A stretch of DNA of 64,000 nt, from positions 40,536-104,535 of the IMG/VR virus record IMGVR_UViG_3300020048_003650, one strand, 5' to 3'. This document shows positions 18,025 through 40,670 of this stretch, piece after piece. Each line of letters begins with the position of its first letter. Within the stretch, counting starts at the first letter, position 1. Below the pieces are notes generated by a model. It was not told the DNA's origin, ran no database searches, and worked only from the letters and a program-made list of their open reading frames with translations. The position numbers were made by a program, and so were the translations under genes. This DNA is from a virus.

Positions 18025-18597
18025 ATGATAGTCTATATTCATGGAGCCAACGCTACTGGTTCAAGTTTTAATTACTTGCGAGATCATTTAAAATATGATG
18101 ATTTAGTAATTGAATATGACAGTAATAATGGCTTTATGAATAACGTGAATTTAATATCTGATCGATTAAAAGACATTGATGAAATGTTTTTTATAGGTCA
18201 CAGTCTAGGTGGAATTTATGCGCTACATTTATCTGAAATATTCGCTGATAAAATTCTAGGAGCCGTAACTCTAAGCACACCCTATAACGGAGCAGAATGT
18301 GCTGAATATGCTAAACATTTTTGGCCTAGGCATAGACTATTTCGTGATATCGGTCCATCAAGTGAACCTATTAAACGTAGTAAAGAAATATCAATACCTC
18401 ATCCATGGACAAATGTAGTATCTACTAGTGGCTCAAACCCACTAATTATTTACCCTAATGATGGTGTAGTTACAATAAATAGTATGAAGTGCAGAAATGA
18501 TATGACTCTGATAGAAATCCCAGTCAATCATTATGAAGTGGTATTAAGTCCACTTTCGCTAGAAATTATACAAGGAGAATTAAATGGCCTACGGTGA
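18025..18597 (+). CDS. Alpha/beta hydrolase
   Basis: YIHGA, GHSLGG nucleophile elbow, STPY, NDGVV, NH. Confidence 0.85.
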   Translation: MIVYIHGANATGSSFNYLRDHLKYDDLVIEYDSNNGFMNNVNLISDRLKDIDEMFFIGHSLGGIYALHLSEIFADKILGAVTLSTPYNGAECAEYAKHFWPRHRLFRDIGPSSEPIKRSKEISIPHPWTNVVSTSGSNPLIIYPNDGVVTINSMKCRNDMTLIEIPVNHYEVVLSPLSLEIIQGELNGLR

Positions 18598-19984: not shown

Positions 19985-20459
19985 GGTCTGGCCAGATCCA
20001 ATATTGATGAAGCCGTGTCAGCCGTGGGACTTCGAAGACCCGCCGTTAGTAGTAAATTTTTTAATGGCAGATATGATTGAAACAATGGCAAAAAGCGGTG
20101 GCATTGGACTGGCTGCAAATCAAGTTGGAATTTCATATCGTGTAATTGCCATGCATGTACAGGAAACTGGAGAGTACATCACTCTATTCAATCCTGAAAT
20201 TGTATCCGTGAGTGAACTACAGTACATAGCAATGGAAGGTTGTTTAAGTTTTCCCAAAGTTATGCTAGACATATCTAGACCAAAAACAGTTGAGATTCGG
20301 TATGTTGATCATTTTGAACGAGAATATACAAGAACGTTCTCGGATATTGATGCTAAGTGTGTACTACACGAAATTGACCATTTAGACGGGAAAACATTTA
20401 AAGAGTATGTTAGTCCACTTAAATTTAGTAGAGCCATAGAAAAAGGAAGAAAACGATGA
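19968..20459 (+). CDS. def: Peptide deformylase
   Basis: GIGLAANQVG, EGCLS, HEIDHLDG. Confidence 0.96.
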   Translation: MILPIKVWPDPILMKPCQPWDFEDPPLVVNFLMADMIETMAKSGGIGLAANQVGISYRVIAMHVQETGEYITLFNPEIVSVSELQYIAMEGCLSFPKVMLDISRPKTVEIRYVDHFEREYTRTFSDIDAKCVLHEIDHLDGKTFKEYVSPLKFSRAIEKGRKR

Positions 20460-23572: not shown

Positions 23573-24157
23573 ATGGCTTCATTAGTACCAATGGTAGTTG
23601 AGCAAACAAGTAAGGGCGAACGTGCCATGGACATCTATTCTCGTCTACTTAAAGATCGAGTAATTATGTTAGACACGGATGTAAATGAAACCAGCGCCAG
23701 TTTAATTGTGGCACAGTTGCTATTTTTAGAATCAGAAGATTCAGATAGTGATATCAACTTCTATATCAATAGTCCTGGTGGCTCGGTAATTGCCGGCTTG
23801 AGTATCTTAGATACCATGAGATTTATTAAGTGTGATGTGTCAACTATTGTCATGGGACAAGCTGCTAGTATGGGGTCATTGTTGGCAAGTAGCGGCACTC
23901 CTGGCAAGCGACTGATGTTGCCTAGCGCTAGACATATGATTCATCAAGTATCTAGTGGTACTCGTGGCACGGCGATTGATATGAAAATCGCACTTGAAGA
24001 AACACTTAAGCTGAATGAATATTTAACACGTATCTATGTAGAGAACACTGGCAAGACATATGAACAACTTGAACAGGACATGAGTCGTGATAAGTTTATG
24101 TCAGCACAGGAGTCGGTTGAATACGGTCTAGTGGATCGAATTATCGTCAAGAGATAA
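23573..24157 (+). CDS. clpP: ClpP protease, canonical type
   Basis: [42 protein letters not shown]. Confidence 0.97.
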
Positions 24158-26933: not shown

Positions 26934-27155
26934 ATGAAATATCATGACATAATGGAATCATTGATGATGAACTATCTATTCGAGCCGTGGGATGCTCAAA
27001 CACGACTTCAATTGGAATATGATTTTAGATCACAGTGTCCTGGTCCATATATTATTACATGGACAAAACGATGGGAAAGTGACGGTATTCCGGTTTATCT
27101 ATTTCAATTCGAAGATCCAGTTGAGGAAACAATGTGGCTGTTGAGGTGGTCATGA
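26934..27155 (+). CDS. FxL[KR]W-family small protein
   Basis: Ends MWLLRWS. Confidence 0.7.
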   Translation: MKYHDIMESLMMNYLFEPWDAQTRLQLEYDFRSQCPGPYIITWTKRWESDGIPVYLFQFEDPVEETMWLLRWS

Positions 27156-27352
27156 AAATAGAATCTACAACTTATCATGGCTGGACCAATCAACAGAGCG
27201 TATATCGAGTTAAAACTTACGATGATTTTATAGAAATCTCTAAATGGATGCAACTCAATGGGGTAGACAACGCACTATTGTCGTCTGGATTGAATGAATA
27301 CATATTTGAAGTTCGTGATAATCATGAATGGTTTATTCTGAAATGGCTATAA
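27152..27352 (+). CDS. FxL[KR]W-family small protein
   Basis: ATGA overlap; KWM motif; ends WFILKWL. Confidence 0.7.
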   Translation: MKIESTTYHGWTNQQSVYRVKTYDDFIEISKWMQLNGVDNALLSSGLNEYIFEVRDNHEWFILKWL

Positions 27353-27519
27353 TATATCGAGCAAAGATTCCAGAAGCATGGGCAAGAGTAAAATGGTGCG
27401 AACAACAGTTTGGTCCCACAGTTTGGTGGAACTCAACGGCTCGCTGGTATCGGGATGGCGGGTATATATGCTTTCGTGATGAATCGGATTACGTGTTATA
27501 CTTGCTAAGATGGGCATGA
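27343..27519 (+). CDS. FxL[KR]W-family small protein
   Basis: KWCEQQFG; ends FRDESDYVLYLLRWA. Confidence 0.75.
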   Translation: MAIIYRAKIPEAWARVKWCEQQFGPTVWWNSTARWYRDGGYICFRDESDYVLYLLRWA

Positions 27520-27722
27520 TTATTCAATTACATAAAGAGTTTAGGATTTGGAGAGAAATGGTTCCGTGGTTGGTAGAACATTGTGGTCCAGTCTTGAATA
27601 GTAAACCTGTTGTATATTGGAGAGGACGGGAGTGGGAGTTGAGTTACGAATCGTCAAATTATTGGCAAGTGAATATAAATGACGAGAAAATGGCTACATT
27701 ATTTGTATTGAGATGGTATTGA
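27516..27722 (+). CDS. FxL[KR]W-family small protein
   Basis: PWLVEHCG; ends DEKMATLFVLRWY. Confidence 0.75.
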   Translation: MIIQLHKEFRIWREMVPWLVEHCGPVLNSKPVVYWRGREWELSYESSNYWQVNINDEKMATLFVLRWY

Positions 27723-27723
27723 G

Positions 27724-28005
27724 ATGGGCATGACTCAATACGAACATTGGAAACGAGATCACGATAGAACAATGGAAGAAATGGATATTCTAGCGGAATG
27801 GAAATACAAAAGATTTGTAATCGTCGATCCGGAATTACATGACTATTCTAATCATGTAATATTACTATATGACTATTTGTATTGGTCAGATAATATTCTT
27901 GAGTTAGTTGAATGGTGTCATAATAACAACTGTAAGTTAAAGGGAATGACCATAGAAATACCAAATGATTCTTTGCTGACTATGTTTATCTTGAGGTGGA
28001 CATGA
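27724..28005 (+). CDS. FxL[KR]W-family small protein (close paralog of 24170..24448)
   Basis: L.DY.YW....EL.EWC...KLKGMTIEI..LLTMFILRWT. Confidence 0.8.
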   Translation: MGMTQYEHWKRDHDRTMEEMDILAEWKYKRFVIVDPELHDYSNHVILLYDYLYWSDNILELVEWCHNNNCKLKGMTIEIPNDSLLTMFILRWT

Positions 28006-28202
28006 TTAAATTACCAGTAGAACCCTATTGGGTTAACGCCGCTGATTGGTGGCTGAAGAATCGCAACAACAATAACCATGAATTCAATCTATGGTTACGT
28101 GAACAGGGTGTGCACGTTGTCAAGCGAGATAAATTTTATCCCTGGATTGAATTTCATGATTCAGTTCATGCGGTAATTTTTCAATTAAAATGGAGTGATT
28201 AG
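28002..28202 (+). CDS. FxL[KR]W-family small protein
   Basis: LWLREQG; ends IFQLKWSD. Confidence 0.7.
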   Translation: MIKLPVEPYWVNAADWWLKNRNNNNHEFNLWLREQGVHVVKRDKFYPWIEFHDSVHAVIFQLKWSD

Positions 28203-28579
28203 TGACAACTGAACACTTCCTGTTATTAGGGTTCACACTGTTTGCCGTTAAACATTACATATGTGATTTTGTATTGCAAACAAATGATATGATTCGGTCT
28301 AAAGGACACTGGGGTGAATGGCGGGGTATTGTACACAGCGTATATCATGGAATGGGAACTATGGTAGTCATTGGCATAATGGGATTTGGAACGGTGTCGT
28401 GCATACTCATGGGATTGCTTGACACGGTAGTACACTATCATGTTGACTGGGCAAAACAAAAACTTAATGATGCGTTAAAATACACTGTGGATAATCCTAA
28501 ATTCTGGAATTTATTAGGCCTAGACCAACTGCTACACACGCTAACTTATGTCGGAATATTACTGACGGTCACATCGTGA
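28202..28579 (+). CDS. DUF3307-like membrane protein
   Basis: KHYICDFVLQ, H..YH, HYHVDWAK, GLDQLLH. Confidence 0.8.
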   Translation: MTTEHFLLLGFTLFAVKHYICDFVLQTNDMIRSKGHWGEWRGIVHSVYHGMGTMVVIGIMGFGTVSCILMGLLDTVVHYHVDWAKQKLNDALKYTVDNPKFWNLLGLDQLLHTLTYVGILLTVTS

Positions 28580-28899
28580 TTGAAATTGATGTAGATTTAA
28601 CTGTAGATACTGATTCTGAGGTGTATCAGAATGCCATTGCCTACTGGGCAAATCTCGATGAGAACAGGAGCAAATGGAATAAAAAATGGCAGTCGGCGGT
28701 CACTGCCGCTAACGACTATAAAAACCTTGTGGTTGAACCATTTCATCAGTGGCTAGCATCTCAGGGAGCAACCGTGTCCAATAATAAAAAACCCACTGAC
28801 CTCTACATGGTTGATAGCTATAACATAGCACAGGGAATAGATGTCCTGTTATTTGACACAGAACAGAATAAATTGATTTTTTTACTAAGGTGGAGTTAG
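28576..28899 (+). CDS. FxL[KR]W-family protein
   Basis: FHQWLASQGA; ends IFLLRWS. Confidence 0.75.
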   Translation: MIEIDVDLTVDTDSEVYQNAIAYWANLDENRSKWNKKWQSAVTAANDYKNLVVEPFHQWLASQGATVSNNKKPTDLYMVDSYNIAQGIDVLLFDTEQNKLIFLLRWS

Positions 28900-29343: not shown

Positions 29344-29865
29344 ATGACTTCAAAACTTACCTCAACAGACCCACGTATCGTTGATTTATTTAAATCGTAT
29401 CATCGCCGAGTTAAATCTCGTCCACAGTTATTTAATAATAGTAACTCAATGATTACCGTTGGATTATCGGCCGATTTGTTAGATTACGCTAATGCCGCGG
29501 CTGGTCATAGTGGCTTTGCTGCTAGTGCACGCCCAGTTGGTATTCGAGTGACCGTGAGTGATAGTACTAAATCTCTTAAAGATATCTTTAGTTCGTGTGA
29601 ATCACTGGCCGAGTTTATTAACTCAAGTGAGTGCAATGCCGCGGAGTATATTGCTAGAATTAGAGATCGTGATTCTAAAGTATCTAATAAACCAGGCAAG
29701 AACGCAATTACAATCGATATCCGTCCAATCAAAGATGCTTTCTACGATTTAGGGTACAACTTTGATCTAATTCAAAAACTCAAGAATACGTACGGCACTG
29801 ACACCGTTAAACGTGACTGGGACAATCTTCAGGTTACAGAATTTCAACTTCGCTACGCTGTCTAA
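29344..29865 (+). CDS. Hypothetical protein at the start of the methylation island
   Basis: AGGGA RBS; own promoter. Confidence 0.7.
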   Translation: MTSKLTSTDPRIVDLFKSYHRRVKSRPQLFNNSNSMITVGLSADLLDYANAAAGHSGFAASARPVGIRVTVSDSTKSLKDIFSSCESLAEFINSSECNAAEYIARIRDRDSKVSNKPGKNAITIDIRPIKDAFYDLGYNFDLIQKLKNTYGTDTVKRDWDNLQVTEFQLRYAV

Positions 29866-30835
29866 CACAGGTACTGTCGTGATAAATAATTCGGTCGTCA
29901 ACGTACTTGACACACTCAAAAAAGAAGATTACAATATTCTAATAGTTAATGCCCTTAACGGAGCGTTTCCTATTAGAGTTCGTAAAAAATATCCAAAAGC
30001 TAGAATTATCTGCGCCGAGATATTTCCATACTTCAAATCTCATCTACTCAAGTTGGGATTTGAAGTCATTGATTTTTCAATATTGACCGAAGATATGATA
30101 AAACGATTTAATGTGACTTTAGGTAATCCACCGTTTCAGGCAATGAAGTCTGATGGAGAGCGCAGTGATCAGGCTAGTAACCTGTGGAGTAAATTTTGGG
30201 TCAAGTCATTGGATATTACCAATGACAATGGAATTGTTGCTTTGGTTAGTCCAACTAGTTGGATTTCTCCTAGTTCAGAGATACGAGGCAAATGGTCTCG
30301 TAACGGCAAATCTAGATTGTGGGAGGTATTCGATCAATACGGTAGCTACGCTAATGTGACAGATGTAAAAAAACATTTTGATGGTGTGGGTTCTACATTT
30401 GGATATGTGATCGTAGATAAATCTAAAGATACTGGATTGATATTTTCAGACGGCGTGTCAACTAAATTAGGATTTCGCGCTCATGGAGAATATGACCGAG
30501 TTGAATTGGAACTAGATCGAATAGAGAATCTTGATAAACATTTTAAGATTAATCAAGTTAATTCCCCCGGTCTAAGAGTTAGCTTTCCGTTAACCAGAAC
30601 ATTAACCGTTAACAGCGTAGAGATATTAACAGGACAATCGTCGCCGACTACCGGCTCTGATAAAGATGGTTTGTATCTGTACATTCACGTGAATAATCTC
30701 ACTGAAGCGGAATTGGTAAAAAACCGAATTATTGATTGTTTGGATATTTTAAATAAACTCTGCAAGTACAGTGGATTTATTAATATCCAAACAGTAAAAA
30801 TGATTAAATTCTTCGATAGTGTTGTAAAAAGTTGA
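29813..30835 (+). CDS. Gamma-class (Eco57I/TaqI-like) adenine MTase: catalytic + TRD part with degenerate SAM motif
   Basis: FNVTLGNPPF, LWSKF, VSPTSW; motif I eroded to IVNALNGAF; start uncertain. Confidence 0.8.
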   Translation: MTGTIFRLQNFNFATLSNTGTVVINNSVVNVLDTLKKEDYNILIVNALNGAFPIRVRKKYPKARIICAEIFPYFKSHLLKLGFEVIDFSILTEDMIKRFNVTLGNPPFQAMKSDGERSDQASNLWSKFWVKSLDITNDNGIVALVSPTSWISPSSEIRGKWSRNGKSRLWEVFDQYGSYANVTDVKKHFDGVGSTFGYVIVDKSKDTGLIFSDGVSTKLGFRAHGEYDRVELELDRIENLDKHFKINQVNSPGLRVSFPLTRTLTVNSVEILTGQSSPTTGSDKDGLYLYIHVNNLTEAELVKNRIIDCLDILNKLCKYSGFINIQTVKMIKFFDSVVKS

Positions 30836-30891
30836 CAATAAATCCCACTTGTGATATACTGTAGTTATTCTAACACATAGAGAATAGTTAA

Positions 30892-33372
30892 ATGAGTTTA
30901 AAGATTATTGGTGACAGAGCCAAGATACACTGGTTGAGTTCAACTAAATCAGTAACCTTGACCAAAGATCAGGGCGTACTCTATATCACTCAAGATGGTA
31001 AACTTGGTCAGGCAACCGTAGAGAGTTATGCCGGTCTGACTCCGGCCGAGGCATTCGTGCGTCGCTATAATGGCATGAAGTCTGCCATGAATGGTAACTT
31101 TATTGCCGATGATCTCGTGGTGATTGATAAGACGTATGGTGAGAATCATGATTATGATGATGGTGTTCGTCTACTGATTAATAAATTAAACAAGATCAAT
31201 CTGATTGATTTTCGAGCTAACGTTCTATCTCAACAGACCGAAAATTCAAACAGCGAGGCACTAATAGATTACAAGTCATCGTCGCATAGAGACGATGTTA
31301 TCAATTGTATCAAACAATATCTAGGAATTAACACATACTACAATACTCACACACCATTTCAACCACGTTACGGCCAACAGTGGGCCGTCGACGGTATTGT
31401 TAGCGGTCTCGCTCAGTATGATCGTGTGTTGTTTGCTGGCTACACGGGCGTTGGCAAGAGCAAGATTGCCTTAGAGGCAATTCATCAGTACTATCCTGGT
31501 GGCGCTGTGATTCTTATTACCACACCTATTACCGAGACCATTACGTCATTCAAGGACGCCGTCGATGATACAAGATTTGGCAATTCTCCAACCAGAGAGA
31601 CTGTGATATATTCGACCGATAATATGCCGAGTGTCAAGAATATCAAAAACTCTGTTGCCAATGGCAATATTGTTATTGTTATTGCCACAGTACAGGATAT
31701 TCGCTATCAAGACAGTTCTTCAATTACCACACCGAATAAAAAACTTCGTACAAAATACACGTCACTGTGTCAGATAGTTGATCTATGGATTCGTGATGAG
31801 TATCATAAAGAGTACGGCGGAACAGTTACTCAGGAGGTATTCAAACATATCAAGACCAGTAAAAAACTAGACTTGACCGCCACGCCGTATTCGGTCATTG
31901 ATGAATATGATAGTGAACAGGTAATCTCACGTACACTATTGTGGGCAGTGGCAAATCGTGCTAATACCGGCGTGCCAAATTTTGGTATTGACTGTTTAGC
32001 CGGCTTGTTGCCAAAAAACATGAGTAAGTGGGGCGACCTATTCAGCGAGAGCGAGGGCTTTCACAGTCATAAATTGGTCGAACAATGCAGTTCAACAGGC
32101 GAGTTCGTAAACTTCGGAATCATCGAGGATATGATCGAGCGTTCATACTGTATGAATACCGTGCCTCGTAAAAAGAACGTGTTCAGCATCGGTAATGATG
32201 CTGAGTTGAGTCTTGTCGCCCGTGAAGTTGGATTGTGGATTATGCCAGAGGGAGCAAATGGCATTTCGGCATCAGACTACATTGTGTCACTGGCAGACAA
32301 ATTGAATCGTTGTGGCACAATTAATAAACACGTTAAAGTTACAACGGCATATGAGATTGACGGTCTGCGTAAACAGTTAACTGTGGAAGAATATGTTAAT
32401 TCAATCAAAGACCATCGTGTCTTGATTATCCTTACTCACGGTAAGTTCAAAACCGGAACTGATATACCCTGTTTAGGTCACATTGTATTACTAGACAAGA
32501 TTAGTAATATAGCGGAGTTTGAACAAACTGTTGGTAGAATCATGCGTGTCTATCCAACTAAGGACTACACTAAAATGTATGTGTACAGTCCAGGTGTCAC
32601 CGTCAAGGAAGTAGTTACTGAGTTAGCCCATCAGAATACTAAATTGTCCACGGACGAGACCCGTAGTGAATTGGATTTCTTAAGTTGTTTTCCAATTAGC
32701 GAGTATGATGGTCTGTCTATCCAGTCTCTCGATCCAGTTACACTGTTTGAAGAGTTTAAAGAAAAACTTAGACTCAAGAGTGCAATTGCCAACTTTAAAT
32801 TGCCCAGTGAAATTCGTTCAATGATTGAGAATAATTCAGATATCGCGGACGAATTATCTTTGCTGTCTAAGAAAAATGGTAAGCGCGATGGCCTAAGTTC
32901 GGACCTTACAGAAGATAATAACTCTGAGGTTTTTGGCAACCGTAATAAAAAAAATGGCAACACGAAAAAATCAACACCAGTCAACCAAGATCAAAAAACT
33001 ATCAATAATATCATTAACGGACTGGAAGAAATTTGGATAAACGTTCCGCCATTTGCCATTATTACAGATAGTGACGACATCGTTGATGTGTTACAATGTG
33101 AACCGCTAATTGAAATGTTCGGTCATGATCATATCTATTCAGTCGTCGATGTGATGAATAATTATCCAGACTTTAAGAAACGACTGCAACTTAGATTGAA
33201 CGTGTTCTTGACTGCATTCCGTGATCTACCGCCGGAACAGTGTTACGATTCAGTATTTAAAAACTGTGATAAAAAAATGAAACAGGGATTGGTATTCACC
33301 CCGTTTAGTTTAATTGATGAATTGTTGGATAAATTGCCTATGGACAGTTACAACGCTAAATATGGATACTAA
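30892..33372 (+). CDS. SF2 helicase of type ISP/III restriction-enzyme style, ending in MTase motif X
   Basis: PRYGQQWAV, GYTGVGKS, IRDEYH, LTATP, TGTDIP, QTVGRIMR; C-terminal GLVFTPFSLIDELLDKLP. Confidence 0.85.
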   Translation: MSLKIIGDRAKIHWLSSTKSVTLTKDQGVLYITQDGKLGQATVESYAGLTPAEAFVRRYNGMKSAMNGNFIADDLVVIDKTYGENHDYDDGVRLLINKLNKINLIDFRANVLSQQTENSNSEALIDYKSSSHRDDVINCIKQYLGINTYYNTHTPFQPRYGQQWAVDGIVSGLAQYDRVLFAGYTGVGKSKIALEAIHQYYPGGAVILITTPITETITSFKDAVDDTRFGNSPTRETVIYSTDNMPSVKNIKNSVANGNIVIVIATVQDIRYQDSSSITTPNKKLRTKYTSLCQIVDLWIRDEYHKEYGGTVTQEVFKHIKTSKKLDLTATPYSVIDEYDSEQVISRTLLWAVANRANTGVPNFGIDCLAGLLPKNMSKWGDLFSESEGFHSHKLVEQCSSTGEFVNFGIIEDMIERSYCMNTVPRKKNVFSIGNDAELSLVAREVGLWIMPEGANGISASDYIVSLADKLNRCGTINKHVKVTTAYEIDGLRKQLTVEEYVNSIKDHRVLIILTHGKFKTGTDIPCLGHIVLLDKISNIAEFEQTVGRIMRVYPTKDYTKMYVYSPGVTVKEVVTELAHQNTKLSTDETRSELDFLSCFPISEYDGLSIQSLDPVTLFEEFKEKLRLKSAIANFKLPSEIRSMIENNSDIADELSLLSKKNGKRDGLSSDLTEDNNSEVFGNRNKKNGNTKKSTPVNQDQKTINNIINGLEEIWINVPPFAIITDSDDIVDVLQCEPLIEMFGHDHIYSVVDVMNNYPDFKKRLQLRLNVFLTAFRDLPPEQCYDSVFKNCDKKMKQGLVFTPFSLIDELLDKLPMDSYNAKYGY

Positions 33373-33373
33373 G

Positions 33374-34399
33374 ATGATTGACAAGTTAAGCGATAAAGAC
33401 TACAATATCTTAGTGATAAATGCACTTAACGGCACATTTGCAATTAAACTCAGACAGCGGTATCCACGTGCCAGAATTATCTGTGCCGAGATGTTCTCTT
33501 ACTACGGAGAACACCTGACTAAACTGGGTTTTGAAGTTATCGACTACAAAGACTTGGACAAGAGTATGAGATTTGATGTAATAGCCGGAAATCCTCCTTA
33601 TCTTAAAGGAAAATGGATAGAGTTTTTAAAACGTTCTATCGAACTTTCCAATAAACACGTTCTGATGATTTCTCCAGACGGAACGAATAATTTTTCCACT
33701 CGCTCTGATAAATTGATCAGTTTTCTTAAGGAAAATGGAATTCAATCAAAAGTTGAATGCACTGATTCTTTCCCTACTGTTCTTAGCGGCAAGATTGTCA
33801 CTTATTTTTTGGATAAAAGTAAACCTGGAAATTCAGATATCTTTGACCCAGTTGATGATCTTGGACGACTGTTAAAACAAGTTATCCCGAATTCCAGAAA
33901 AAGTTTTCGGGGCGGCTATGAATTTATGGAACCAAAAGTAAAAGGAATTAAGCGTAACAAGAACAAGGACGTTCTGCCAAGTAATGATTCACAATCGTCA
34001 GAATATTCTCAACGAGTAATTGTGGGTGTCACCAGAAAAGGAATCATCGAACGATATTTTGCTGAACAATCTAGCGAGAGTCAGGCTACGGAACTAGGGT
34101 TTGTCATAAATCGCTCATTCGGACAAGGGTCCAATAAAGACGTTTATTTGGTAGATTCACAGAATACACAATTTACCAATAATGTCATTTGGTTCGAGGC
34201 ATATCCTGGAGAGACTGTGGAATCATTCTTATCAGTTTTTGGTAGTAATCTTTACGGCGAATTACTTACTCGTTTACGTAATGGTTCCATGGATATTCGA
34301 GCAACTCATCTTCAGGCATTGCCATGTCCGCCGCTAACTCGTGTGTATTCTGAACAAGAAGTCCACAATTTTGTTAAAAATCAACAAAAATATGGCTAA
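33374..34399 (+). CDS. Gamma-class adenine MTase: catalytic + TRD part with degenerate SAM motif
   Basis: MRFDVIAGNPPY, WIEFLKRS, MISP; N-terminal part paralogous to the 29813 gene. Confidence 0.8.
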   Translation: MIDKLSDKDYNILVINALNGTFAIKLRQRYPRARIICAEMFSYYGEHLTKLGFEVIDYKDLDKSMRFDVIAGNPPYLKGKWIEFLKRSIELSNKHVLMISPDGTNNFSTRSDKLISFLKENGIQSKVECTDSFPTVLSGKIVTYFLDKSKPGNSDIFDPVDDLGRLLKQVIPNSRKSFRGGYEFMEPKVKGIKRNKNKDVLPSNDSQSSEYSQRVIVGVTRKGIIERYFAEQSSESQATELGFVINRSFGQGSNKDVYLVDSQNTQFTNNVIWFEAYPGETVESFLSVFGSNLYGELLTRLRNGSMDIRATHLQALPCPPLTRVYSEQEVHNFVKNQQKYG

Positions 34400-34450
34400 A
34401 GCCATACAAAATCACTTGACACCGATCAACTATTAGAGTACAATAGTCAC

Positions 34451-34981
34451 ATGAACATTGAAACTATTATCAAACATTTACGTGAACGTGAATACATGTC
34501 GGGCGTTGACCGTGACAAAACTCGTGTAAAAGCGACCGGCGAAGTCTACACTCCAACTCCTCTTGTACAAGAGATCCTCCATCAAATACCACAAGATCAA
34601 TTTCAGGATCCCACTAAGACATTCTTAGACCCGACCTGTGGTGACGGTCAGTTCTTGAGTGAAATCATTATCAAGAAGATCGAATCTGGTTCAACATACG
34701 AACAGGCACTCTCAACTACCTATGGCGTTGATTTAATGCCAGATAACTGCCGTGAGTGTATCAGGCGATTGTACGGCGCCCTGGGTGAGCCTGTTATTGA
34801 AACCCTAGAAAATGGAGATATCCCCCTGGAGTGGCAGCGTGATGGCGTCATCGCGGTATTCAGGGTGAACGGCACAATCTGTAACATTGTCTGTGCAGAC
34901 GGACTTAAATATGACTACAGTTTTGGTGAATTGCCTGAGCCAGAGGTGTTTGGCAATTCGCTATTCGAAATAGGAGCATGA
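34451..34981 (+). CDS. Stand-alone SAM-binding half of a gamma-class MTase (motifs X, I, II, III only)
   Basis: TGEVYTP, FLDPTCGDGQFL, YGVDL, NIVCADGL; no NPPY motif. Confidence 0.85.
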   Translation: MNIETIIKHLREREYMSGVDRDKTRVKATGEVYTPTPLVQEILHQIPQDQFQDPTKTFLDPTCGDGQFLSEIIIKKIESGSTYEQALSTTYGVDLMPDNCRECIRRLYGALGEPVIETLENGDIPLEWQRDGVIAVFRVNGTICNIVCADGLKYDYSFGELPEPEVFGNSLFEIGA

Positions 34982-36000
34982 ATTCATTACTAAACTACAT
35001 TGGTCACAAGTCAAAAAATATGAATAATTTTTACGTTCTAAAACGTGATGTGCTATCAATGAACAAGATCAATGAACTAGTTGACCTTGTTTATATCGAT
35101 CCTCCATTTAATTTGAGTCGAAGATTTGAAATGGAAGGTGGTAGCGGATTTGATGATTATTGGAAAAATGATGATGAATACTTAGATTGGTATGCGTCTA
35201 TTATCACTGGATGTTATAATGTCCTGGGTAAGAACGGGACCATCTATTGTCATAATAACTTTATAAATAACGCATTGGTTCTTTCGAGAGTGTCGGAAAA
35301 AATTAGAAAATCATTCGATACCAATATTTCTTGGAAACGTAGTCACCCTCACAATAACATCAAAAATGGTTGGGGTAATATTACAGACAGTATTATTGTT
35401 TTTAAAAAGGGAAAACCATATTTTCAGCCAGAATACACTGAGTTAAATGAGAACTACAAAACTGGTAGTTTTAATAACTGTGATAGTCGCGGAAACTATA
35501 GTTTGAGTCCTATTACAGGAGAGAAATCACGATTGGGTCATATGTACACGTTTAATGGATACACACCCACTTATGGTTGGCGTAAGACTCTCGAGGATGT
35601 TCAAATTCTACACGAACAAAATATGATTCATTATGGAGATAATAAACCATATATGAAAAAATATTTAAACGAAAGTAAGGGTGTGCCAGTTCAAAATTTT
35701 TGGAACGATATACATCCTATCACCAGAAGTGAGAAGAATAAGCGTGAGTACCCAACACAAAAACCAACATTGTTACTGGAGCGTATTATCAGAGCTAGTT
35801 GCCCTGTAAATGGTTTGGTTTTTGACCCGTTCTGTGGTAGCGGAACTACAATGATGGCCACAGTTAATGTTGGAAATAGACGTTGTATCACAAGCGATCT
35901 AAATGATGAAGCTCTACAATTATGTAAAAATTCTCTACAACAACTATTAATATTCCCCGATATTGACGGAGAAAATATTTGGCCTACGTCCCAGTTATGA
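34978..36000 (+). CDS. Beta-class N6/N4 DNA methyltransferase
   Basis: YIDPPF ... YPTQKP..LLERII..FDPFCGSGTT. Confidence 0.93.
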   Translation: MNSLLNYIGHKSKNMNNFYVLKRDVLSMNKINELVDLVYIDPPFNLSRRFEMEGGSGFDDYWKNDDEYLDWYASIITGCYNVLGKNGTIYCHNNFINNALVLSRVSEKIRKSFDTNISWKRSHPHNNIKNGWGNITDSIIVFKKGKPYFQPEYTELNENYKTGSFNNCDSRGNYSLSPITGEKSRLGHMYTFNGYTPTYGWRKTLEDVQILHEQNMIHYGDNKPYMKKYLNESKGVPVQNFWNDIHPITRSEKNKREYPTQKPTLLLERIIRASCPVNGLVFDPFCGSGTTMMATVNVGNRRCITSDLNDEALQLCKNSLQQLLIFPDIDGENIWPTSQL

Positions 36001-36071
36001 TACTGATAAAAATAATTTATTTTTCTTTGAAAACACTTGACAGTATTAACAGACTATAGTATAATATCTGA

Positions 36072-36890
36072 ATGAGATTTGATGTAATAGCCGGAAATCC
36101 TCCATTTAATATTTCTAGTGATAGCGAAAACACTATTGCTGGAACCAGTGGCAATACTACACTTTACAAAAAGTTTATTGACATTAGTTTATCATTATCA
36201 GACACTGTGGCTATGGTGGTTCAACGTAATGGAGTCAGATATGCCGACAAAAAATCAGGCGGTGTGAGTAAATATTGTCTTGACACTACTCAGCACTGGA
36301 ATTTTAACACTGGGTGGTTTATCACTAATAAGTCAGACACATCAGTAGAGAACTGTTCTAAGAATCAGATTATCAAAAAAATATATTTATTAGAACAACA
36401 GTGGAATTACTCGGCCCCACTCAGCGGAAGTTATTCTAAGAATATCGATAAGAAGTTTTGGCTAAAATCCAATGGTCAAGATGTTTATGGAATAGTTGAC
36501 ACTCCAACGAAGGATTTCGACGAATGTCGATACGGATATTTTGAATCACCGTATCGTAGTGGTTCACAACTGATATTCAAGGGATTGGAAAGTATCAACA
36601 GTTATGTGGTGACTGATGAGTTTACCAAGGCAGGCAGTACGGCTGTATTGTTTTTTGACACAATTGAACAGGCTCATTTGGCAAAGAAATTTATTCTTAA
36701 CAATCTTGTGATTAAATATTTAAAATCAATAATTCATGAAAAGACACTGGGTATGGTATTTAGATATCTACGAAAGTTTGATTTGAATCAAATAAAGACT
36801 GGTTATGAATATCCCGTGGAATGGAATCTAAGTGAACAAGACATTGAAAAAATAGAAAACAATCAATCAAAGTTATCCAAAATTACTTGA
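36072..36890 (+). CDS. Stand-alone catalytic + TRD half of a gamma-class MTase
   Basis: Begins MRFDVIAGNPPF, LYKKFI; no SAM-binding motif; promoter 36037-36065. Confidence 0.8.
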   Translation: MRFDVIAGNPPFNISSDSENTIAGTSGNTTLYKKFIDISLSLSDTVAMVVQRNGVRYADKKSGGVSKYCLDTTQHWNFNTGWFITNKSDTSVENCSKNQIIKKIYLLEQQWNYSAPLSGSYSKNIDKKFWLKSNGQDVYGIVDTPTKDFDECRYGYFESPYRSGSQLIFKGLESINSYVVTDEFTKAGSTAVLFFDTIEQAHLAKKFILNNLVIKYLKSIIHEKTLGMVFRYLRKFDLNQIKTGYEYPVEWNLSEQDIEKIENNQSKLSKIT

Positions 36891-37005
36891 CACCGATCAA
36901 CTATCATAGTACAATGTCTGTGCGAACGGACTTAAATATGACTACAGTTTTGGCGAATTGCCAGAATCAGAGATCATTGGAAATGGTCTGTTTGAAATCG
37001 GATAA
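36887..37005 (+). pseudogene. Deletion remnant of a second SAM-half gene (promoter + last 29 codons)
   Basis: TTGACACCGATCAACTAT matches 34416; VCANGLKYDYSFGELPESEIIGNGLFEIG* matches the end of 34451..34981. Confidence 0.85.
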
Positions 37006-37059: not shown

Positions 37060-38529
37060 ATGAAAATAACAGAAGTTATACAAGAGTCGGAATCAAAATT
37101 AAAATCAAGAGTTAAAAGAGCGATTGATAAACTAGATGATTCTGATGCGGAACAGATTCAGACTCTAAATCACGTAAAAAATGTTATTTATGACAGTGTA
37201 TTGCAAAAAACATTTAATGAAAGTGACATCCAGTCTAGATGTCGTCCTATTGCGTACGAATGGTTCAAGGCTGCGTTAGAACGGATCGGTGTTCCTCTCG
37301 AAGATAAGGTATATCTGATAAAATTGATGGGAGACGAAAGATATTTAATTCCTGAAGAAATATATCAGAAAAATACCAATGGCAACTTGTTAAATCACGT
37401 AAGCGACAAGATAAGAACAAACTCGGCGTTCAAGGAATTGGCTAGCCCGTTGTGGAAATATAAAATAGGTGGCCAGGGCGGAATGGGACCTGGTGAGTTG
37501 TTTATGTCGCTTTTTTCAAAAAACGGCAAGGAAGGAGAAGGCAAAAAAGGAGGAGATGTCACAGTCGGAAGTTGGAAAATAGAACTGAAGCAGGGAGGAG
37601 TCGTTCCGCCCGGTGACACCAAAAATACAGGATTAGTTGATAAGTTAAACAAAAATCTATTGGATATTGCAAAAAAAGAAAACTTTTTAGATAGATTAGA
37701 TTTAAAATCGTCTGCTGGAAAAGATAATCCCAACAATTTAAGTTCTGGATGGATTCCTCAGTTTTTTAAAACATACACTGAACTTCACGATGAGTCATCA
37801 TCTAAAAAAATACTTACTAAATATCTAACGGATTTGTATGGAAGTTCGGCACGTGCATATGCCGATTTGACTTTTGATAACTTAGGTAAACCCGGAGCAG
37901 AAAGAGTATTAGCTCCGATGATTTTAGATATGTATAAGGATTCCCACGAGTGGGATAGTATTTGTTTTGTTGATGAAAACTTTAAATTCATTAACCTGGT
38001 TACCTTTGAAAATATACCAAATGATCTTAAGTTTTCACTGAAACTGAAAAGAGGAGGAGATACTAATGCTGTTGCCGACGGTTACATGGTTGTCGGTTTT
38101 AATAATGACAAAAAACAATCTTCAACTAAGAATAACAAAAAAATAGACAATAAATCAACTATACAAACATCTAAGAAAAATGACGGTGATGTAAAAAACA
38201 AAAACATACCATCTGACAATAAAAAGATTCAACCTCCAGTTCCAGAAAAAACCGCCAAACAACAGGCAAAAGATCAGGTCAGAGATTCTAAAATTAATGA
38301 TATGATCAATCTTATCAAAACTGAACCTTCAAAACCATTATCGGTTGCGATTAAGAAAACTATTGGTATGAATCCTACCATAAATCAACTTGAAATAATA
38401 GGTGATGTTATTGATGACATGGAATCCGGAGTCTCTGTCGATCAAATTATCGCCGACCGGTCCGGACCAGAAAATTTTTATGAATCATCAATGCAGTTAA
38501 TGGGAATAAAACGTCTACTCCAATTTTAA
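37060..38529 (+). CDS. Putative PD-(D/E)xK endonuclease, late, with capsid-targeting-like N-terminus
   Basis: GPGELF...GGDV..WKIELK; MKITEVIQE start; GATAAATA at 37021. Confidence 0.6.
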   Translation: MKITEVIQESESKLKSRVKRAIDKLDDSDAEQIQTLNHVKNVIYDSVLQKTFNESDIQSRCRPIAYEWFKAALERIGVPLEDKVYLIKLMGDERYLIPEEIYQKNTNGNLLNHVSDKIRTNSAFKELASPLWKYKIGGQGGMGPGELFMSLFSKNGKEGEGKKGGDVTVGSWKIELKQGGVVPPGDTKNTGLVDKLNKNLLDIAKKENFLDRLDLKSSAGKDNPNNLSSGWIPQFFKTYTELHDESSSKKILTKYLTDLYGSSARAYADLTFDNLGKPGAERVLAPMILDMYKDSHEWDSICFVDENFKFINLVTFENIPNDLKFSLKLKRGGDTNAVADGYMVVGFNNDKKQSSTKNNKKIDNKSTIQTSKKNDGDVKNKNIPSDNKKIQPPVPEKTAKQQAKDQVRDSKINDMINLIKTEPSKPLSVAIKKTIGMNPTINQLEIIGDVIDDMESGVSVDQIIADRSGPENFYESSMQLMGIKRLLQF

Positions 38530-38593
38530 AATATCTGACTATTTTGGATAATATTATCTTGACTTTCATGTGCCTATAACATATAATAGATAC

Positions 38594-39526
38594 ATGTCAA
38601 AATATAAAAAACCTCTGTTTATGTGGGCCGGCGGCAAAACTAAAATGATCAAGTTTTATGATCAGAGTCGAATAATGCCAACTACAGTCAACCGATACAT
38701 TGAACCATTCTTTGGTGGCGGAGCAATGTACATCGAAGTGATGGAAAGATTTAATCCAAAGATATCAATTATCAACGATATAAATTCCAGTATAGTTAAA
38801 ATTTATCAATCTATCAAAACTGATTATGATAATTTTATTATTCATCTGGATCGATTATGTGTTAAATATCTAGCCATGAACACCGTTGATCGTAAAACGT
38901 TTTATTACGAGGTTAGAAATTTACACGCGTATCATTATCAAAATTGGAGTAGTACTCAAGAATCCGCTACTCTTTACTTTTTGATGAAAACTGGATTCAA
39001 CGGAATATGGCAATGTAATCAAAATACAAATGGTAGATTTGGAACACCTAGTGGCCTATTGAATCAGAAAGACAGAGTCTATGATGTGGACGTAATCAAA
39101 TATTGGAATAATATTCTTCAATCATCCATTATTTTAAATCAAGATTGCAAATCTGTTTTATCACAATATCCAGACGTAGACGATAGTTTTTATTTTTTAG
39201 ACCCTCCATATAGAGGGAGTTTTACTCATTACAGTCAAACTTTCACAGATCAAGACCAAACAGATTTGTTAACCTTCGCCAAATCTGTCTCGTCTAATAG
39301 TAGGATATTATTGTGTAATGATGACGTTGGAGATAATTTTTTTCAGAATCAAATAGGTTCTCTTCAAATAGAGTCATACAATCTAAAACATACAGCGGGC
39401 CGTAGAAAAAAAACTGATGATGGATTTATCGCAAAGTCGGTAACGGAAATAGTCATTCATAACTCATCGAACATAAAATCCACATCGGAATCTTTTGGAA
39501 ACGACCTATTCGAAATCGGCGCATGA
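38594..39526 (+). CDS. dam: Dam-family (alpha-class) adenine methyltransferase
   Basis: FMWAGGK, YIEPFFGGGA, INDIN, FNG, FLDPPY. Confidence 0.92.
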   Translation: MSKYKKPLFMWAGGKTKMIKFYDQSRIMPTTVNRYIEPFFGGGAMYIEVMERFNPKISIINDINSSIVKIYQSIKTDYDNFIIHLDRLCVKYLAMNTVDRKTFYYEVRNLHAYHYQNWSSTQESATLYFLMKTGFNGIWQCNQNTNGRFGTPSGLLNQKDRVYDVDVIKYWNNILQSSIILNQDCKSVLSQYPDVDDSFYFLDPPYRGSFTHYSQTFTDQDQTDLLTFAKSVSSNSRILLCNDDVGDNFFQNQIGSLQIESYNLKHTAGRRKKTDDGFIAKSVTEIVIHNSSNIKSTSESFGNDLFEIGA

Positions 39527-39560
39527 ATTCATTACTGAACTACATTGGTCATAAATCAAA

Positions 39561-40466
39561 ATGAAACATGATTACAGATTAGGCGATTGTTTTGAACATC
39601 TCGCCTCTATACAGGACAACTCGGTCGATCTATGTCTAACCGACCCGCCATACTTTATAGATGGATTGGGCGATGAATGGGACACTGATAAAATTAAAGC
39701 CAGTATTTCGACCAACGCCACGTCTACCATCAAGTCCTTGCCAGTTGGTATGAAGTTTGACCCATCTCAAGGTCCACGTTTTCAAGAATTCATGGAACGA
39801 GTCTCCACGGAAGTATTTAGAGTTCTTAAACCTGGCGGATTTTATGTTGCTTTCAGTCAAGCGAGACTGTATCATCGACTGGGCATTGCCGTTGAAAATT
39901 GCGGATTTGAAATTAGAGACATGTTAGGCTGGACTTATCAGGGACAAGCCAAAGCATTTAGTCAAGATCATATCATTCGTAAGCAAAAAAACTTAACCGA
40001 AGACGAAAAGACCTCACTGATAAAAGAGTTAGATGGCTGGAAAACTCCACAATTAAAACCCTGTATCGAACCGATGACTTTGGCACAAAAACCCATAGAG
40101 GGTAAGTTTATCGATAATTGGCAAAAGTGGGGTGTGGGGTTAATTAACACTAATCAGCGTTGGGACGACAGTTTTCCTGGAAATATTATCGGGTGTAATA
40201 AGCCCACCAAAAAAGAAAAGGGAGATTACAATAATCATGTGAGTGTTAAGCCTCTAGAGTTATGTGAGCATTTAATAAAACTTTTAACCAGAGAAAACGC
40301 CATCGTTCTGGATCCATTTTTAGGTTCAGGTACTACGCTAATAGCCGCTGAAAATACTCAACGCAGATGTATTGGATTTGAATTATCATCTGAGTACTTT
40401 GATATTATACAACGTAGGCTAAGTACGGCGACCCATTATAATAAAATTTTAGGATTTGATAGTTGA
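39561..40466 (+). CDS. Beta-class DNA methyltransferase
   Basis: LTDPPY, RVLKPGG, HVSVKP, LDPFLGSGTT. Confidence 0.93.
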   Translation: MKHDYRLGDCFEHLASIQDNSVDLCLTDPPYFIDGLGDEWDTDKIKASISTNATSTIKSLPVGMKFDPSQGPRFQEFMERVSTEVFRVLKPGGFYVAFSQARLYHRLGIAVENCGFEIRDMLGWTYQGQAKAFSQDHIIRKQKNLTEDEKTSLIKELDGWKTPQLKPCIEPMTLAQKPIEGKFIDNWQKWGVGLINTNQRWDDSFPGNIIGCNKPTKKEKGDYNNHVSVKPLELCEHLIKLLTRENAIVLDPFLGSGTTLIAAENTQRRCIGFELSSEYFDIIQRRLSTATHYNKILGFDS

Positions 40467-40670
40467 ATGAACTCACTTCTCAACTACATTGGTCACAAGT
40501 CAAAAATCGTCAACCAAATCAAGATGTATTTGCCTGAGACTGTTATTGAACTGGCTAAAAAATATCGAAAATGGGCAAGCGCTGGCAACAAAACCGTAGA
40601 GCGTGGCTCTAAAATCAATCGAGAAGTCTTAGTACTATCATATCGGTCGCCAATAATTCAAATCGTTTAA
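40467..40670 (+). pseudogene. Internally deleted Dam-like MTase remnant
   Basis: Dam-like start LNYIGHKSKIVNQIKMYLP joined directly to a Dam-like end REVLVLSY. Confidence 0.7.

What the first reader, a model, noticed from the sequence alone, without database searches (positions are those of the whole stretch)
29813..37005. Candidate new system: split, mix-and-match gamma-class DNA methyltransferase (one SAM half, three catalytic/TRD halves)
Seen: 34451..34981 carries only motifs X, I, II and III (GEVYTP, FLDPTCGDG, YGVD, NIVCADGL) and stops where motif IV should start. 36072..36890 begins at motif IV (MRFDVIAGNPPF) and has no SAM site. 33374..34399 and 29813..30835 also have NPPY/F plus unrelated C-terminal TRDs, with motif I eroded to [VI]NALNG. 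The order [catalytic half][SAM half] occurs twice; the second SAM half is now only a remnant at 36887-37005. Known: intact gamma MTases (TaqI/Eco57I type) run X-I-II-III-IV-TRD in one chain, and M.AquI is a two-chain precedent among C5 MTases. Inference: one SAM subunit complements several specificity subunits in trans, giving expandable anti-restriction methylation.
Basis: partly seen in the sequence, partly recalled or inferred. Interest (0 to 1): 0.9.

Follow-up and report, generated by a model that had tools for sequence, protein, structure and literature searches.

The report
Split phage adenine methylase, clamp-type tail
A large marine phage makes the cofactor-binding part of a DNA adenine methylase as a separate small protein; this conserved, unstudied arrangement ends in a tail like the one that ties related phages' DNA polymerase to the sliding clamp.

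Summary
34451-34981 carries only motifs X, I, II and III. 36072-36890 starts exactly at motif IV. 36911-37005 is a deleted second copy of the cofactor half.

The split is neither decay nor an assembly error. The half belongs to a family of more than 5,000 stand-alone proteins. In 54 of 67 related phage loci it lies directly after an NPPY gene. Single-chain relatives join both halves in that same order. The modelled fold of one such chain matches beta-class methylases, so the system is better described as a split beta-order enzyme with TaqI-like motifs than as a split gamma-class enzyme.

33374 folds as a complete TaqI-like methylase, and its NALNG motif is a conserved variant, not erosion. 29813 shares that N-domain. 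Only 36072 strictly needs the half.

New here: the half, and the neighbouring Dam, end in FGN[SD]LFEIGA. This matches the C-terminal clamp-binding tail of the gp43-type polymerases of related phages. It suggests methylation coupled to replication, but this is inferred, not shown.

The parts
34451..34981 (+). Stand-alone AdoMet-binding half (motifs X, I, II, III), 176 aa
   Evidence: ORF and motifs. Pfam N6_Mtase match to the N-terminal part only. 5,406 stand-alone relatives of 96-308 aa. Conserved columns. 51% identical to residues 281-449 of the single-chain P0132. Best PHROG match is phrog_4376, 'unknown function'.
34949..34978 (+). C-terminal tail FGNSLFEIGA, a candidate sliding-clamp-binding peptide
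   Evidence: A terminal [LF]F motif after a variable linker occurs in 95 of 120 family members. It occurs in 12 of 303 and 3 of 103 background ORFs and in 0 of 43 catalytic partners. It resembles the C-termini of gp43-type polymerases of related phages.
34416..34444 (+). Consensus promoter TTGACA-N17-TACAAT; its -10 box ends 6 nt before the ATG of the half (leaderless geometry)
36072..36890 (+). Catalytic/TRD half that starts at motif IV (MRFDVIAGNPPF) and has no strands 1-3
   Evidence: In-frame TGA directly upstream. Residues 1-259 of single-chain P0132 align to it full length (29% identity, E 1e-25).
36037..36065 (+). Perfect consensus promoter TTGACA-N17-TATAAT, 6 nt before the ATG of 36072
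   Evidence: 12 of 12 matches.
36869..37005 (+). Deleted second copy of the cofactor-half gene: a promoter copy (36869-36915) joined to the last ~30 codons (36913-37005), with no start codon in frame
   Evidence: Repeats D2 (82%) and D3 (87%). Sequence.
33374..34399 (+). Complete TaqI-like N6-adenine methylase (NALNG-type AdoMet subdomain, NPPY, TaqI-like TRD); the gene directly upstream of the cofactor half
   Evidence: AF2 pLDDT 88.9, pTM 0.85, strands 1-7 all present. Foldseek matches M.TaqI, CamA and M.BseCI. NALNG motif conserved.
30892..33372 (+). SF2 helicase (ResIII plus Helicase_C) whose C-terminus carries a motif X-like GLVFTPFSLIDELLDKL; with 33374 it forms the two pieces of a helicase-methylase fusion seen whole in relatives
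   Evidence: Pfam. The 1,140-aa L080 ORF aligns to the helicase (37% identity, residues 3-823) and then directly to 33374 (45%). Many 1,060-1,290-aa relatives. Junction sequence.
29813..30835 (+). Paralogous NALNG-type methylase with a different TRD (NPPF)
33566..33597 (+). 32-nt stretch encoding MRFDVIAGNPP, identical to 36072-36103; a recombination point at motif IV
   Evidence: Repeat D5, 100% identity.
38594..39526 (+). Dam-type (D12 class) methylase that ends in the same tail, FGNDLFEIGA (39494-39523)
   Evidence: Pfam. Tail. Repeat D1. Promoter plus 6 nt plus ATG at 38594.

Best explanation
34451-34981 encodes the AdoMet-binding module (helix X and strands 1-3) of a phage N6-adenine DNA methylase, made as a separate polypeptide. 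The catalytic and target-recognition part is encoded by a separate gene. In single-chain relatives the order is catalytic, TRD, AdoMet. That is the beta-class permutation, although the motifs and the TRD are TaqI/Eco57I-like.

In this window, 36072-36890 is a true catalytic half. It starts at strand 4 and cannot bind cofactor alone. It must pair non-covalently with the one remaining cofactor half, because its own downstream copy has been deleted. Both genes have their own consensus early promoters. 33374 folds as a complete methylase and 29813 shares its N-domain; 33374 holds the usual partner position upstream of the half.

The half ends in a flexible linker plus a hydrophobic-acidic tail, FGNSLFEIGA. 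This tail matches the clamp-binding C-terminus of the gp43-type polymerases of related phages. The likely role is to hold the methylase on the sliding clamp, so that new phage DNA is methylated as it is replicated and is protected from host restriction.

Shown: the anatomy, the conservation, the synteny, the fused homologues and the predicted folds. Inferred: physical pairing, methylation activity, clamp binding and the protective role.
For: 1. Family size. There are 5,406 stand-alone relatives, against 12 hits in the 309-2,000 aa search. 486 IMG/VR loci encode a relative.
2. Synteny. In 54 of 67 loci (44 of 55 distinct sequences) an NPP[YF] ORF ends within -400 to +63 nt of the start of the half, and 45 of these overlap or abut it. 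The reciprocal search from 33374-like genes finds a stand-alone half on the same strand within the fetched 3.5-kb flanks in 32 of 52 loci: directly downstream in 25, directly upstream in 4, further off in 3. All the closest, helicase-fused relatives have it directly downstream.
3. Same split point. Partners that start at motif IV occur in P-SSM2, in L011-L014, and in L027, L040, L058 and L089.
4. Fused forms. P0132 residues 1-259 match 36072 (E 1e-25) and residues 281-449 match 34451 (E 5e-54). About 90 fused chains of about 370-420 aa appear. Aeromonas phages PX29 and 65 have fused chains too.
5. Fold. The AF2 model of P0132 (pLDDT 84, pTM 0.82) aligns over residues 1 to ~390-435 with beta-class enzymes: M.MboIIA (Z 10.4), M1.HpyAVI, M.BceJIV, CcrM and M.PvuII. 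TaqI and CamA match only residues 1 to ~250.
6. Expression signals. 36072 has a 12-of-12 consensus promoter and the half an 11-of-12 one.
7. Tail. Polymerase and half tails in the same genomes: G004 KSLFDFGE and NDLFEE; G005 GSLFSFG and NGFFSFT; G011 QSLFEF and NQLFEI; G013 ASLFDFGN and NSLFE; S-CAM7 TLESFFG and GLEAFF. In the 92%-complete G005, apart from nine 63-107-aa ORFs of unknown status, only the polymerase, the half and seven members of an unrelated small-protein family (C-termini LRWS/LKYT) end this way.
8. Literature. T4-family clamp ligands are 'hydrophobic and acidic C-termini' that follow divergent linkers of varying length (PMC2988020).
Against:
- Most partners in relatives are 'long' forms with their own strands 1-3, some with a canonical motif I. 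Simple fold completion cannot explain why those genes are always followed by a half.
- This contig (about 30% of the genome) has no polymerase or clamp to compare with. No gp45-type clamp was detected by Pfam or phmmer in relatives G005 and G008, so the clamp is unidentified.
- The tail match between polymerase and half is poor in several genomes: G003, G008, P-SSM2, PX29 and phage 65.
- In this window the tail lies inside a 68-nt DNA repeat that also marks gene junctions. Its presence on the Dam gene could therefore be a recombination by-product.
Confidence: 0.68

Rival explanations
1. The half is not a fold-completing piece. It is an accessory subunit (a clamp adaptor or regulator) that docks onto already complete TaqI-like methylases such as 33374. 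On this view 36072 is an orphan left over from recombination.
For: 47 of 54 adjacent partners are 'long' forms with their own strands 1-3. 33374 folds as a complete enzyme. G005 (92% complete) has one long partner and one half, and no short partner. The domain of the half is also found fused to unrelated domains.
Against: Short partners and about 90 fused chains show that the half does complete the fold in part of the family. The AdoMet-binding motifs of the half are among its most conserved columns. 36072 has a perfect promoter of its own. The two roles do not exclude each other.
Confidence: 0.2
2. Recent decay: 34451 and 36072 are the two ends of one gamma-class gene that was broken when the beta-class methylase gene 34978-36000 was inserted. 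The pieces are on their way to being lost.
For: In the window the order 34451, 34978-36000, 36072 reads X-I-II-III, insert, IV-TRD. The junction repeats show frequent recombination here.
Against: Thousands of relatives end at the same point with a conserved tail and stop codon. 36072 has its own promoter, and the remnant of its own half lies downstream. In relatives the gene order is catalytic first and half second. No gamma-ordered fusion of this half turned up.
Confidence: 0.04
3. This rival concerns the tail only. FGN[SD]LFEIGA is conserved because it lies in a recombination junction, or because it docks onto the catalytic partner. It has nothing to do with the sliding clamp.
For: In the window the tail plus the next gene's start, MNSLLNYIGHKSK, forms a 68-nt repeat present three times. 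The match between polymerase tail and half tail is weak in about half of the genomes compared.
Against: The tail motif persists family-wide behind linkers of very different length and sequence, and in genomes that lack the junction repeat. It also ends fused single-chain forms, where no docking is needed. It follows the polymerase tail type: LE.FF in cyanophages and SLF[DES]F in the large-phage group.
Confidence: 0.3

Closest known systems
Beta-class amino-methyltransferases (M.MboIIA, M1.HpyAVI, M.PvuII, CcrM; motif order IV-TRD-I, PMC7544214)
   Same: The order of modules is the same: catalytic, then TRD, then AdoMet-binding. These are the best structural matches of the fused relative P0132 over residues 1 to ~390-435 (Z 9-10.4).
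   Different: Here the chain is cut between the TRD and the AdoMet module. Motif IV is NPPY/NPPF rather than the usual D/SPPY. The TRD and the sequence profiles are TaqI/Eco57I-like. Dimerisation, thought to be needed for beta-class activity, was not tested.
M.TaqI / Eco57I-type gamma-class N6-adenine methylases (PF07669, PF02384; PDB 2np6, 1g38)
   Same: NPPY, motif X (FTP) and a TaqI-like TRD. 33374 matches M.TaqI and CamA over its whole length.
   Different: Gamma enzymes are single chains ordered X-I-II-III-IV-TRD. The 36072/34451 pair is permuted and split. 33374 and 29813 use NALNG in place of the usual D/E-x-G-x-G motif I.
Natural two-polypeptide C5 methylases M.AquI and M.EcoHK31I (PMC3404938)
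   Same: One methylase fold is built from two separately encoded chains.
   Different: Those are cytosine-C5 enzymes, cut in or near the variable region, and are isolated cases in bacteria. Here an adenine enzyme is cut between the TRD and the AdoMet subdomain, and the arrangement is a very large phage family.
T4-family sliding-clamp ligands gp43, gp55 and gp33 (PMC2988020), and DNMT1-PCNA (PMC9690074)
   Same: A short hydrophobic-acidic peptide at the extreme C-terminus, behind a divergent linker. DNMT1 is a precedent for a DNA methylase carried by a clamp.
   Different: Our literature searches found no phage or bacterial methylase reported as a clamp ligand. Binding is not shown here, and the clamp of this phage group was not identified.
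Type ISP restriction-modification enzymes (LlaGI, LlaBIII), compared with the helicase plus 33374 part
   Same: An SF2 helicase-like motor joined to a gamma-type adenine methylase and TRD. It is whole in relatives such as L080.
   Different: No nuclease domain was found. A sequence search of the PDB gave only a weak UvsW hit. The chain is cut in two here, and it is always followed by a separate cofactor half.

Membership tests
Gamma-class N6-adenine DNA methyltransferase (TaqI/Eco57I type) | Single chain with motif order X-I-II-III-IV...TRD | tested here: not met
   For the 34451/36072 pair, the motifs lie on two chains. Fused relatives run IV...TRD...X-I-III. 33374 and 29813 do have the order I-IV-TRD on one chain.
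Gamma-class N6-adenine DNA methyltransferase (TaqI/Eco57I type) | NPPY-type motif IV and a TaqI-like target-recognition domain | tested here: met
   NPPY/NPPF with Pfam Eco57I hits. The 33374 model matches M.TaqI, CamA and M.BseCI over both domains. Residues 1 to ~250 of P0132 align to TaqI residues 97-411.
Beta-class amino-methyltransferase | Motif order IV, then TRD, then (X) I-III, forming one seven-stranded fold | tested here: met
   Met by the fused homologue P0132: NPPF at residue 8 and motif X at 307; pTM 0.82; best alignments to M.MboIIA, HpyAVI, BceJIV, CcrM and PvuII span residues 1 to ~390-435. For the window's own pair this is inferred from homology.
Beta-class amino-methyltransferase | Active as a dimer with division of labour between subunits | not testable with these tools
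Naturally split (two-polypeptide) DNA methyltransferase | Two adjacent genes, each lacking motifs that the other supplies, kept in relatives | tested here: met
Naturally split (two-polypeptide) DNA methyltransferase | Both chains are needed for activity and form a complex | not testable with these tools
T4-type sliding-clamp ligand | Hydrophobic-acidic peptide at the extreme C-terminus, behind a variable linker, resembling the tail of the cognate polymerase | tested here: met
   (95 of 120 against about 3-4% background). Polymerase tails of related genomes. The window's own contig holds no polymerase.
T4-type sliding-clamp ligand | Binds the clamp | not testable with these tools
   No clamp gene was identified in G000, G005 or G008, and there is no binding assay.
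Type ISP restriction-modification enzyme | Nuclease, helicase-like motor, methylase and TRD in one chain | tested here: inconclusive
   The motor plus methylase is whole in L080. No nuclease family hit was found. A PDB sequence search found only UvsW at E 0.008.

The most novel reading that the evidence does not exclude
The cofactor half is a shared, clamp-borne AdoMet module. Tethered to the sliding clamp by its tail, it docks interchangeably with several catalytic/specificity subunits. These may include short isoforms made from the conserved internal Met ([DN]MKFD) of the apparently complete upstream genes. A phage could then add or swap specificities by recombination at motif IV while all of them stay coupled to the replication fork. 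The family would also display living intermediates of the duplication-and-truncation route from gamma to beta motif order.
Probability: 0.3. Interest if true: 0.85.

Novelty: new variant of a known kind. Interest (0 to 1): 0.72.

Why it matters
Split DNA methylases are known only as a few cytosine-C5 curiosities. Here a split adenine methylase is the rule in a family with thousands of members. The family includes well-known cyanophages (P-SSM2, S-CAM7, S-SKS1), where both genes are still labelled 'hypothetical'.

- **Annotation.** Calling the pair would correct the annotation of many phage genomes and methylomes.
- **Evolution.** The family holds complete gamma-type, degenerate, truncated, split and re-fused beta-order forms side by side. 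That makes the long-standing circular-permutation model of methylase evolution directly testable.
- **Mechanism.** If the tail binds the sliding clamp, this would be the first phage or bacterial counterpart of DNMT1-PCNA. It would explain how a phage methylates its DNA fast enough to escape restriction.

Tried and rejected
- So there was no interface prediction, no wider gene context and no read-level check of the junctions.
- **Nothing to compare.** Megablast of the region against phage records found no match. tblastn of 36072 against phage records also found none.
- **Failed alignments.** Alignment A3, which mixed fused, short and half sequences, misaligned the TRDs and was not used for folding. 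The search for related loci with the broad alignment A4 failed for lack of a conserved stretch, so the narrower A5 was used instead.
- **Clamp search.** Pfam gp45-slide_C and DNA_PPF, and phmmer with the cyanophage and Aeromonas-phage gp45, found nothing in G000, G005 or G008. PHROGs on the genes next to the G005 polymerase named no clamp. The Pfam models barely detect gp45 even in S-CAM7 and PX29, so this says little.
- **Type ISP link.** A sequence search of the PDB with the helicase gave only UvsW at E 0.008. PADLOC gave a partial PbeA match.
- **Internal start.** AAGAG lies too close (1-2 nt) to the ATG at 33566 to serve as a convincing ribosome-binding site. I keep the internal-start idea only as a lead.
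- **Rejected reading.** A gamma gene broken by insertion of 34978-36000; see the rival explanations.
Full report
**Setting.** The window is the last 64 kb of a 104.5-kb viral contig. CheckV puts the contig at about 30% of a genome. Related contigs reach 330-400 kb and carry T4 gp43-type B-family polymerases. The stretch 29.3-40.7 kb is an early-gene island packed with methylase genes on the + strand:
- two NALNG-type NPPY genes (29813, 33374);
- an SF2 helicase (30892);
- the cofactor half (34451);
- a beta-class N6_N4 gene (34978);
- the catalytic half (36072);
- a Dam-type gene (38594);
- a second beta-class gene (39561).

Nine near-perfect sigma-70 promoters (11-12 of 12 matches, N17 spacer) punctuate the island.

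**The observation.** 34451-34981 holds motifs X, I, II and III and then stops. 36072-36890 starts at MRFDVIAGNPPF, with an in-frame TGA just before its ATG. The 'remnant' is a promoter copy (36869-36915, 87% identity) joined to the last ~30 codons of a second cofactor-half gene (36911-37002, 82% identity to 34884-34975). This is an internal deletion of about 440 bp that leaves no start codon. The 82% identity shows that the two copies were diverged paralogues, not a fresh duplication.

**The split is old and conserved.**
- phmmer finds 5,406 relatives of the half among proteins of 96-308 aa. The search of 309-2,000 aa proteins gives only 12 hits.
- 486 IMG/VR loci encode a relative.
- In the 80 best loci, 54 of 67 halves with enough upstream sequence are directly preceded by an NPP[YF] ORF. 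In 45 of those the two genes overlap or abut.
- The same pair is present but unannotated in cyanophages S-CAM7, S-SKS1 and P-SSM2.
- In the reverse direction, starting from 33374-like genes, 32 of 52 loci hold a stand-alone half on the same strand within the fetched 3.5-kb flanks: directly downstream in 25, directly upstream in 4, further off in 3. All the closest, helicase-fused relatives have it directly downstream.

Decay or an assembly error is therefore not the explanation.

**What the pair is.**
- Single-chain forms exist. Aeromonas phages PX29 and 65 encode proteins of 415 and 386 aa that begin MRFDYMIANPPY / SFDYVIMNPPY and end with motifs X, I, II and III.
- About 90 metagenomic chains of about 370-420 aa do the same.
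- P0132 (454 aa) is a direct link between the two window genes. Its residues 1-259 align with 36072 over the full length (E 1e-25), and its residues 281-449 align with 34451 (51% identity, E 5e-54).
- The AlphaFold2 model of P0132 is confident as a whole (pLDDT 84, pTM 0.82).
- Its best sequential structural alignments span residues 1 to ~390-435 and are to beta-class enzymes: M.MboIIA (Z 10.4), M1.HpyAVI, M.BceJIV, TTHA0409, CcrM and M.PvuII. M.TaqI and CamA align only with residues 1 to ~250, which are the catalytic part and the TRD.

So the family has the beta motif order (IV, TRD, I; PMC7544214) combined with TaqI/Eco57I-like sequence and TRD. The 36072/34451 pair is that enzyme cut between the TRD and the AdoMet subdomain. 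The gene order, catalytic half before cofactor half, simply follows the order in the fused chain.

- 33374 is not a half. AlphaFold2 (67-sequence alignment, pLDDT 88.9, pTM 0.85) gives strands 1-3 at residues 11-15, 34-39 and 54-57. Strand 4 with NPPY, strands 5-7 and a TRD follow.
- Foldseek ranks M.TaqI, CamA, M.BseCI, BpuSI and PglX on top.
- NALNG is a conserved motif-I variant. N16, A17, L18, G20 and the motif-II acid E39 are invariant in homologues of 21-39% identity. The motif recurs in dozens of representative clusters.
- 29813 shares this N-domain (46% identity).

The window therefore holds two seemingly complete gamma-type enzymes and one truly split beta-order enzyme.

**The helicase connection.**
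- The helicase ends in GLVFTPFSLIDELLDKL, a motif X. 33374 starts one base after the helicase stop codon.
- In L080 a single 1,140-aa ORF aligns first to the helicase (37% identity) and then to 33374 (45%, including PNALNGT), and is followed by a half.
- Many relatives of 1,060-1,290 aa have the same build.

The window's helicase and 33374 are thus the two pieces of a motor-methylase fusion. The cut sits in a short duplicated segment (DKLPMDSYN / DKLSDKDYN) that also reads as a consensus promoter (33378-33406).

**An open puzzle.** Most partners in relatives are 'long' forms (47 of 54). Their N-terminal extensions fall into several types:
- canonical, with FLDPxxGGGQF, clearly homologous to the half itself but lacking its first ~30 residues;
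- variant, with NALNG or ACGHGTE;
- glycine-free, with VLFNLEF or FFTVEF.

Relative G005 (92% complete) has just one glycine-free long form, one half and no short partner. Fold completion alone cannot explain why complete-looking enzymes are always followed by a half.

Two observations may bear on this. First, 35 of 39 long partners keep a Met exactly where short forms start ([DN]MKFD). That is consistent with an internal start, or with a module junction. Second, the series complete, degenerate, truncated, split and re-fused looks like the duplication-and-truncation route proposed for circular permutation of methylases (Jeltsch 1999, as cited in PMC7544214). Neither point could be tested here.

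**The tail.**
- The half ends in FGNSLFEIGA, the Dam-type gene in FGNDLFEIGA, and the remnant in IIGNGLFEIG.
- Across the family, a linker of very variable length and sequence (from a few residues to more than 60) is followed by a terminal [GQSDN]-L-F-[EDSQT]-[FIY].
- An [LF]F within the last 3-7 residues occurs in 95 of 120 close family members, 31 of 57 halves from the loci and 37 of 90 fused chains. It occurs in 12 of 303 and 3 of 103 background ORFs, and in 0 of 43 catalytic partners.
- The gp43-type polymerases of related genomes end in FKSLFDFGE, VGSLFSFG, FSSLFDFE, FNQLFEFEA, FQSLFEF and FASLFDFGN. The halves of the same genomes end in RWNDLFEE, FGNGFFSFT, TWNQLFEI and HFNSLFE.
- In cyanophage S-CAM7 the polymerase ends in TLESFFG and the half in GLEAFF.
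- In the whole of G005, apart from nine 63-107-aa ORFs of unknown status, only the polymerase, the half and seven members of an unrelated small-protein family (C-termini LRWS/LKYT) end this way.
- T4-family clamp ligands (gp43, gp55, gp33) are defined by just such interchangeable hydrophobic-acidic C-termini behind divergent linkers (PMC2988020). DNMT1-PCNA is the eukaryotic precedent for a clamp-borne methylase (PMC9690074).
- Our literature searches found no phage or bacterial methylase described as a clamp ligand.

Caveats:
- The match is poor in G003, G008, P-SSM2, PX29 and phage 65.
- No clamp gene was identified in this phage group.
- In the window the tail lies in a 68-nt junction repeat.
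- Binding is not shown.

**Mechanism proposed.**
1. Early after infection, the half and 36072 are each transcribed from their own consensus promoters. In both, the -10 box lies 6 nt before the start codon, which is leaderless geometry.
2. The half supplies helix X and strands 1-3, and so the AdoMet pocket, next to strand 4 and NPPF of 36072.
3. The tail holds the assembled enzyme on the sliding clamp, so that daughter DNA is methylated as it is made.
4. Because 36072's own half is deleted, the surviving half must serve it in trans.
5. Whether the half also serves 33374 and 29813 is open. Relatives with several NPPY genes before a single half (L059, L050, L100) fit a shared module.
6. The exact 32-nt identity at motif IV (33566-33597 = 36072-36103) marks a likely point for swapping specificity domains.

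**Novelty.** In PHROGs the best-matching family of the half (phrog_4376) is labelled 'unknown function', and in the phage records examined it is 'hypothetical protein'. Known natural two-chain methylases are the C5 enzymes M.AquI and M.EcoHK31I (PMC3404938). The literature searches found no natural split adenine methylase. Earlier notes of this scan flagged the same family on other DNA, and one noted a clamp-like tail. I treated these as leads and tested the claims independently here.

**Limits.** No interface prediction or read-level check could be made.

Noticed in passing
window 34416-34453, 36037-36074, 38559-38596, 33378-33415: In four genes a consensus -10 box is followed by exactly 6 nt and then the start codon: ATG 34451, ATG 36072, ATG 38594 for the Dam-type gene, and GTG 33413. 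This is the geometry of leaderless mRNAs. The listed GTG 38570 start of the Dam gene lies inside its own promoter, so ATG 38594 is the likelier start.
   Followed up: partly
window 34949-35016, 39494-39561, 40438-40505: A 68-nt repeat covers the tail, the stop codon and the start MNSLLNYIGHKSK of the next gene. It is fused in frame to the beta-class gene at 34978. At 39523 it forms a 13-codon mini-ORF. At 40467 it heads a 67-aa stump. It looks like a recombination joint between methylase cassettes.
   Followed up: partly
window 29907-29935 and 33378-33406: Consensus promoters (11 of 12 matches) lie inside the coding 5' ends of 29813 and 33374, where they are translated as LD[TK]L...DYN. A degenerate copy lies in the helicase 3' end (33341-33370). 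The helicase/33374 junction seems to have been built by duplicating a promoter-bearing segment.
   Followed up: partly
long partner genes in L022-L101 and P0143-P0292; window 33566: A Met is kept exactly where short catalytic halves begin ([DN]MKFD..GNPPY). It occurs in 35 of 39 long partners next to a half and in 81 of 114 homologues of 33374, but in only 4 of 21 of another long subgroup. It may be an internal start or a module joint.
   Followed up: partly
window 26934-28899; G005 72.2-74.1 kb and 234.1-236.3 kb: An array of small proteins (63-125 aa) ends in [LF]F.L[RK]W[SGT]. The same family occurs in two clusters in relative G005. Its function is unknown.
   Followed up: no
proteins P0133-P0137: The cofactor-half domain also occurs fused to unrelated parts. 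These are a 550-aa proline-rich N-terminal region (P0133), MORN-like repeats (P0135), a 440-aa unknown domain (P0137) and a second, N6_N4-type methylase (P0134). The last mirrors the ATGA-coupled 34451/34978 pair of the window.
   Followed up: no
window 37060-38529: A 489-aa ORF between the methylase genes has no Pfam, PHROG or PADLOC match.
   Followed up: no
G000 outside and inside the window (for example window 16611-17816, 23573-24157, 18584-19984, 19968-20459): Judging by the N-terminal sequences only, the contig appears to carry ClpX-, ClpP-, IscU/NifU-, peptide-deformylase- and PstS-like genes, and several radical-SAM-like ORFs. This fits a very large marine phage with many host-derived genes.
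   Followed up: no
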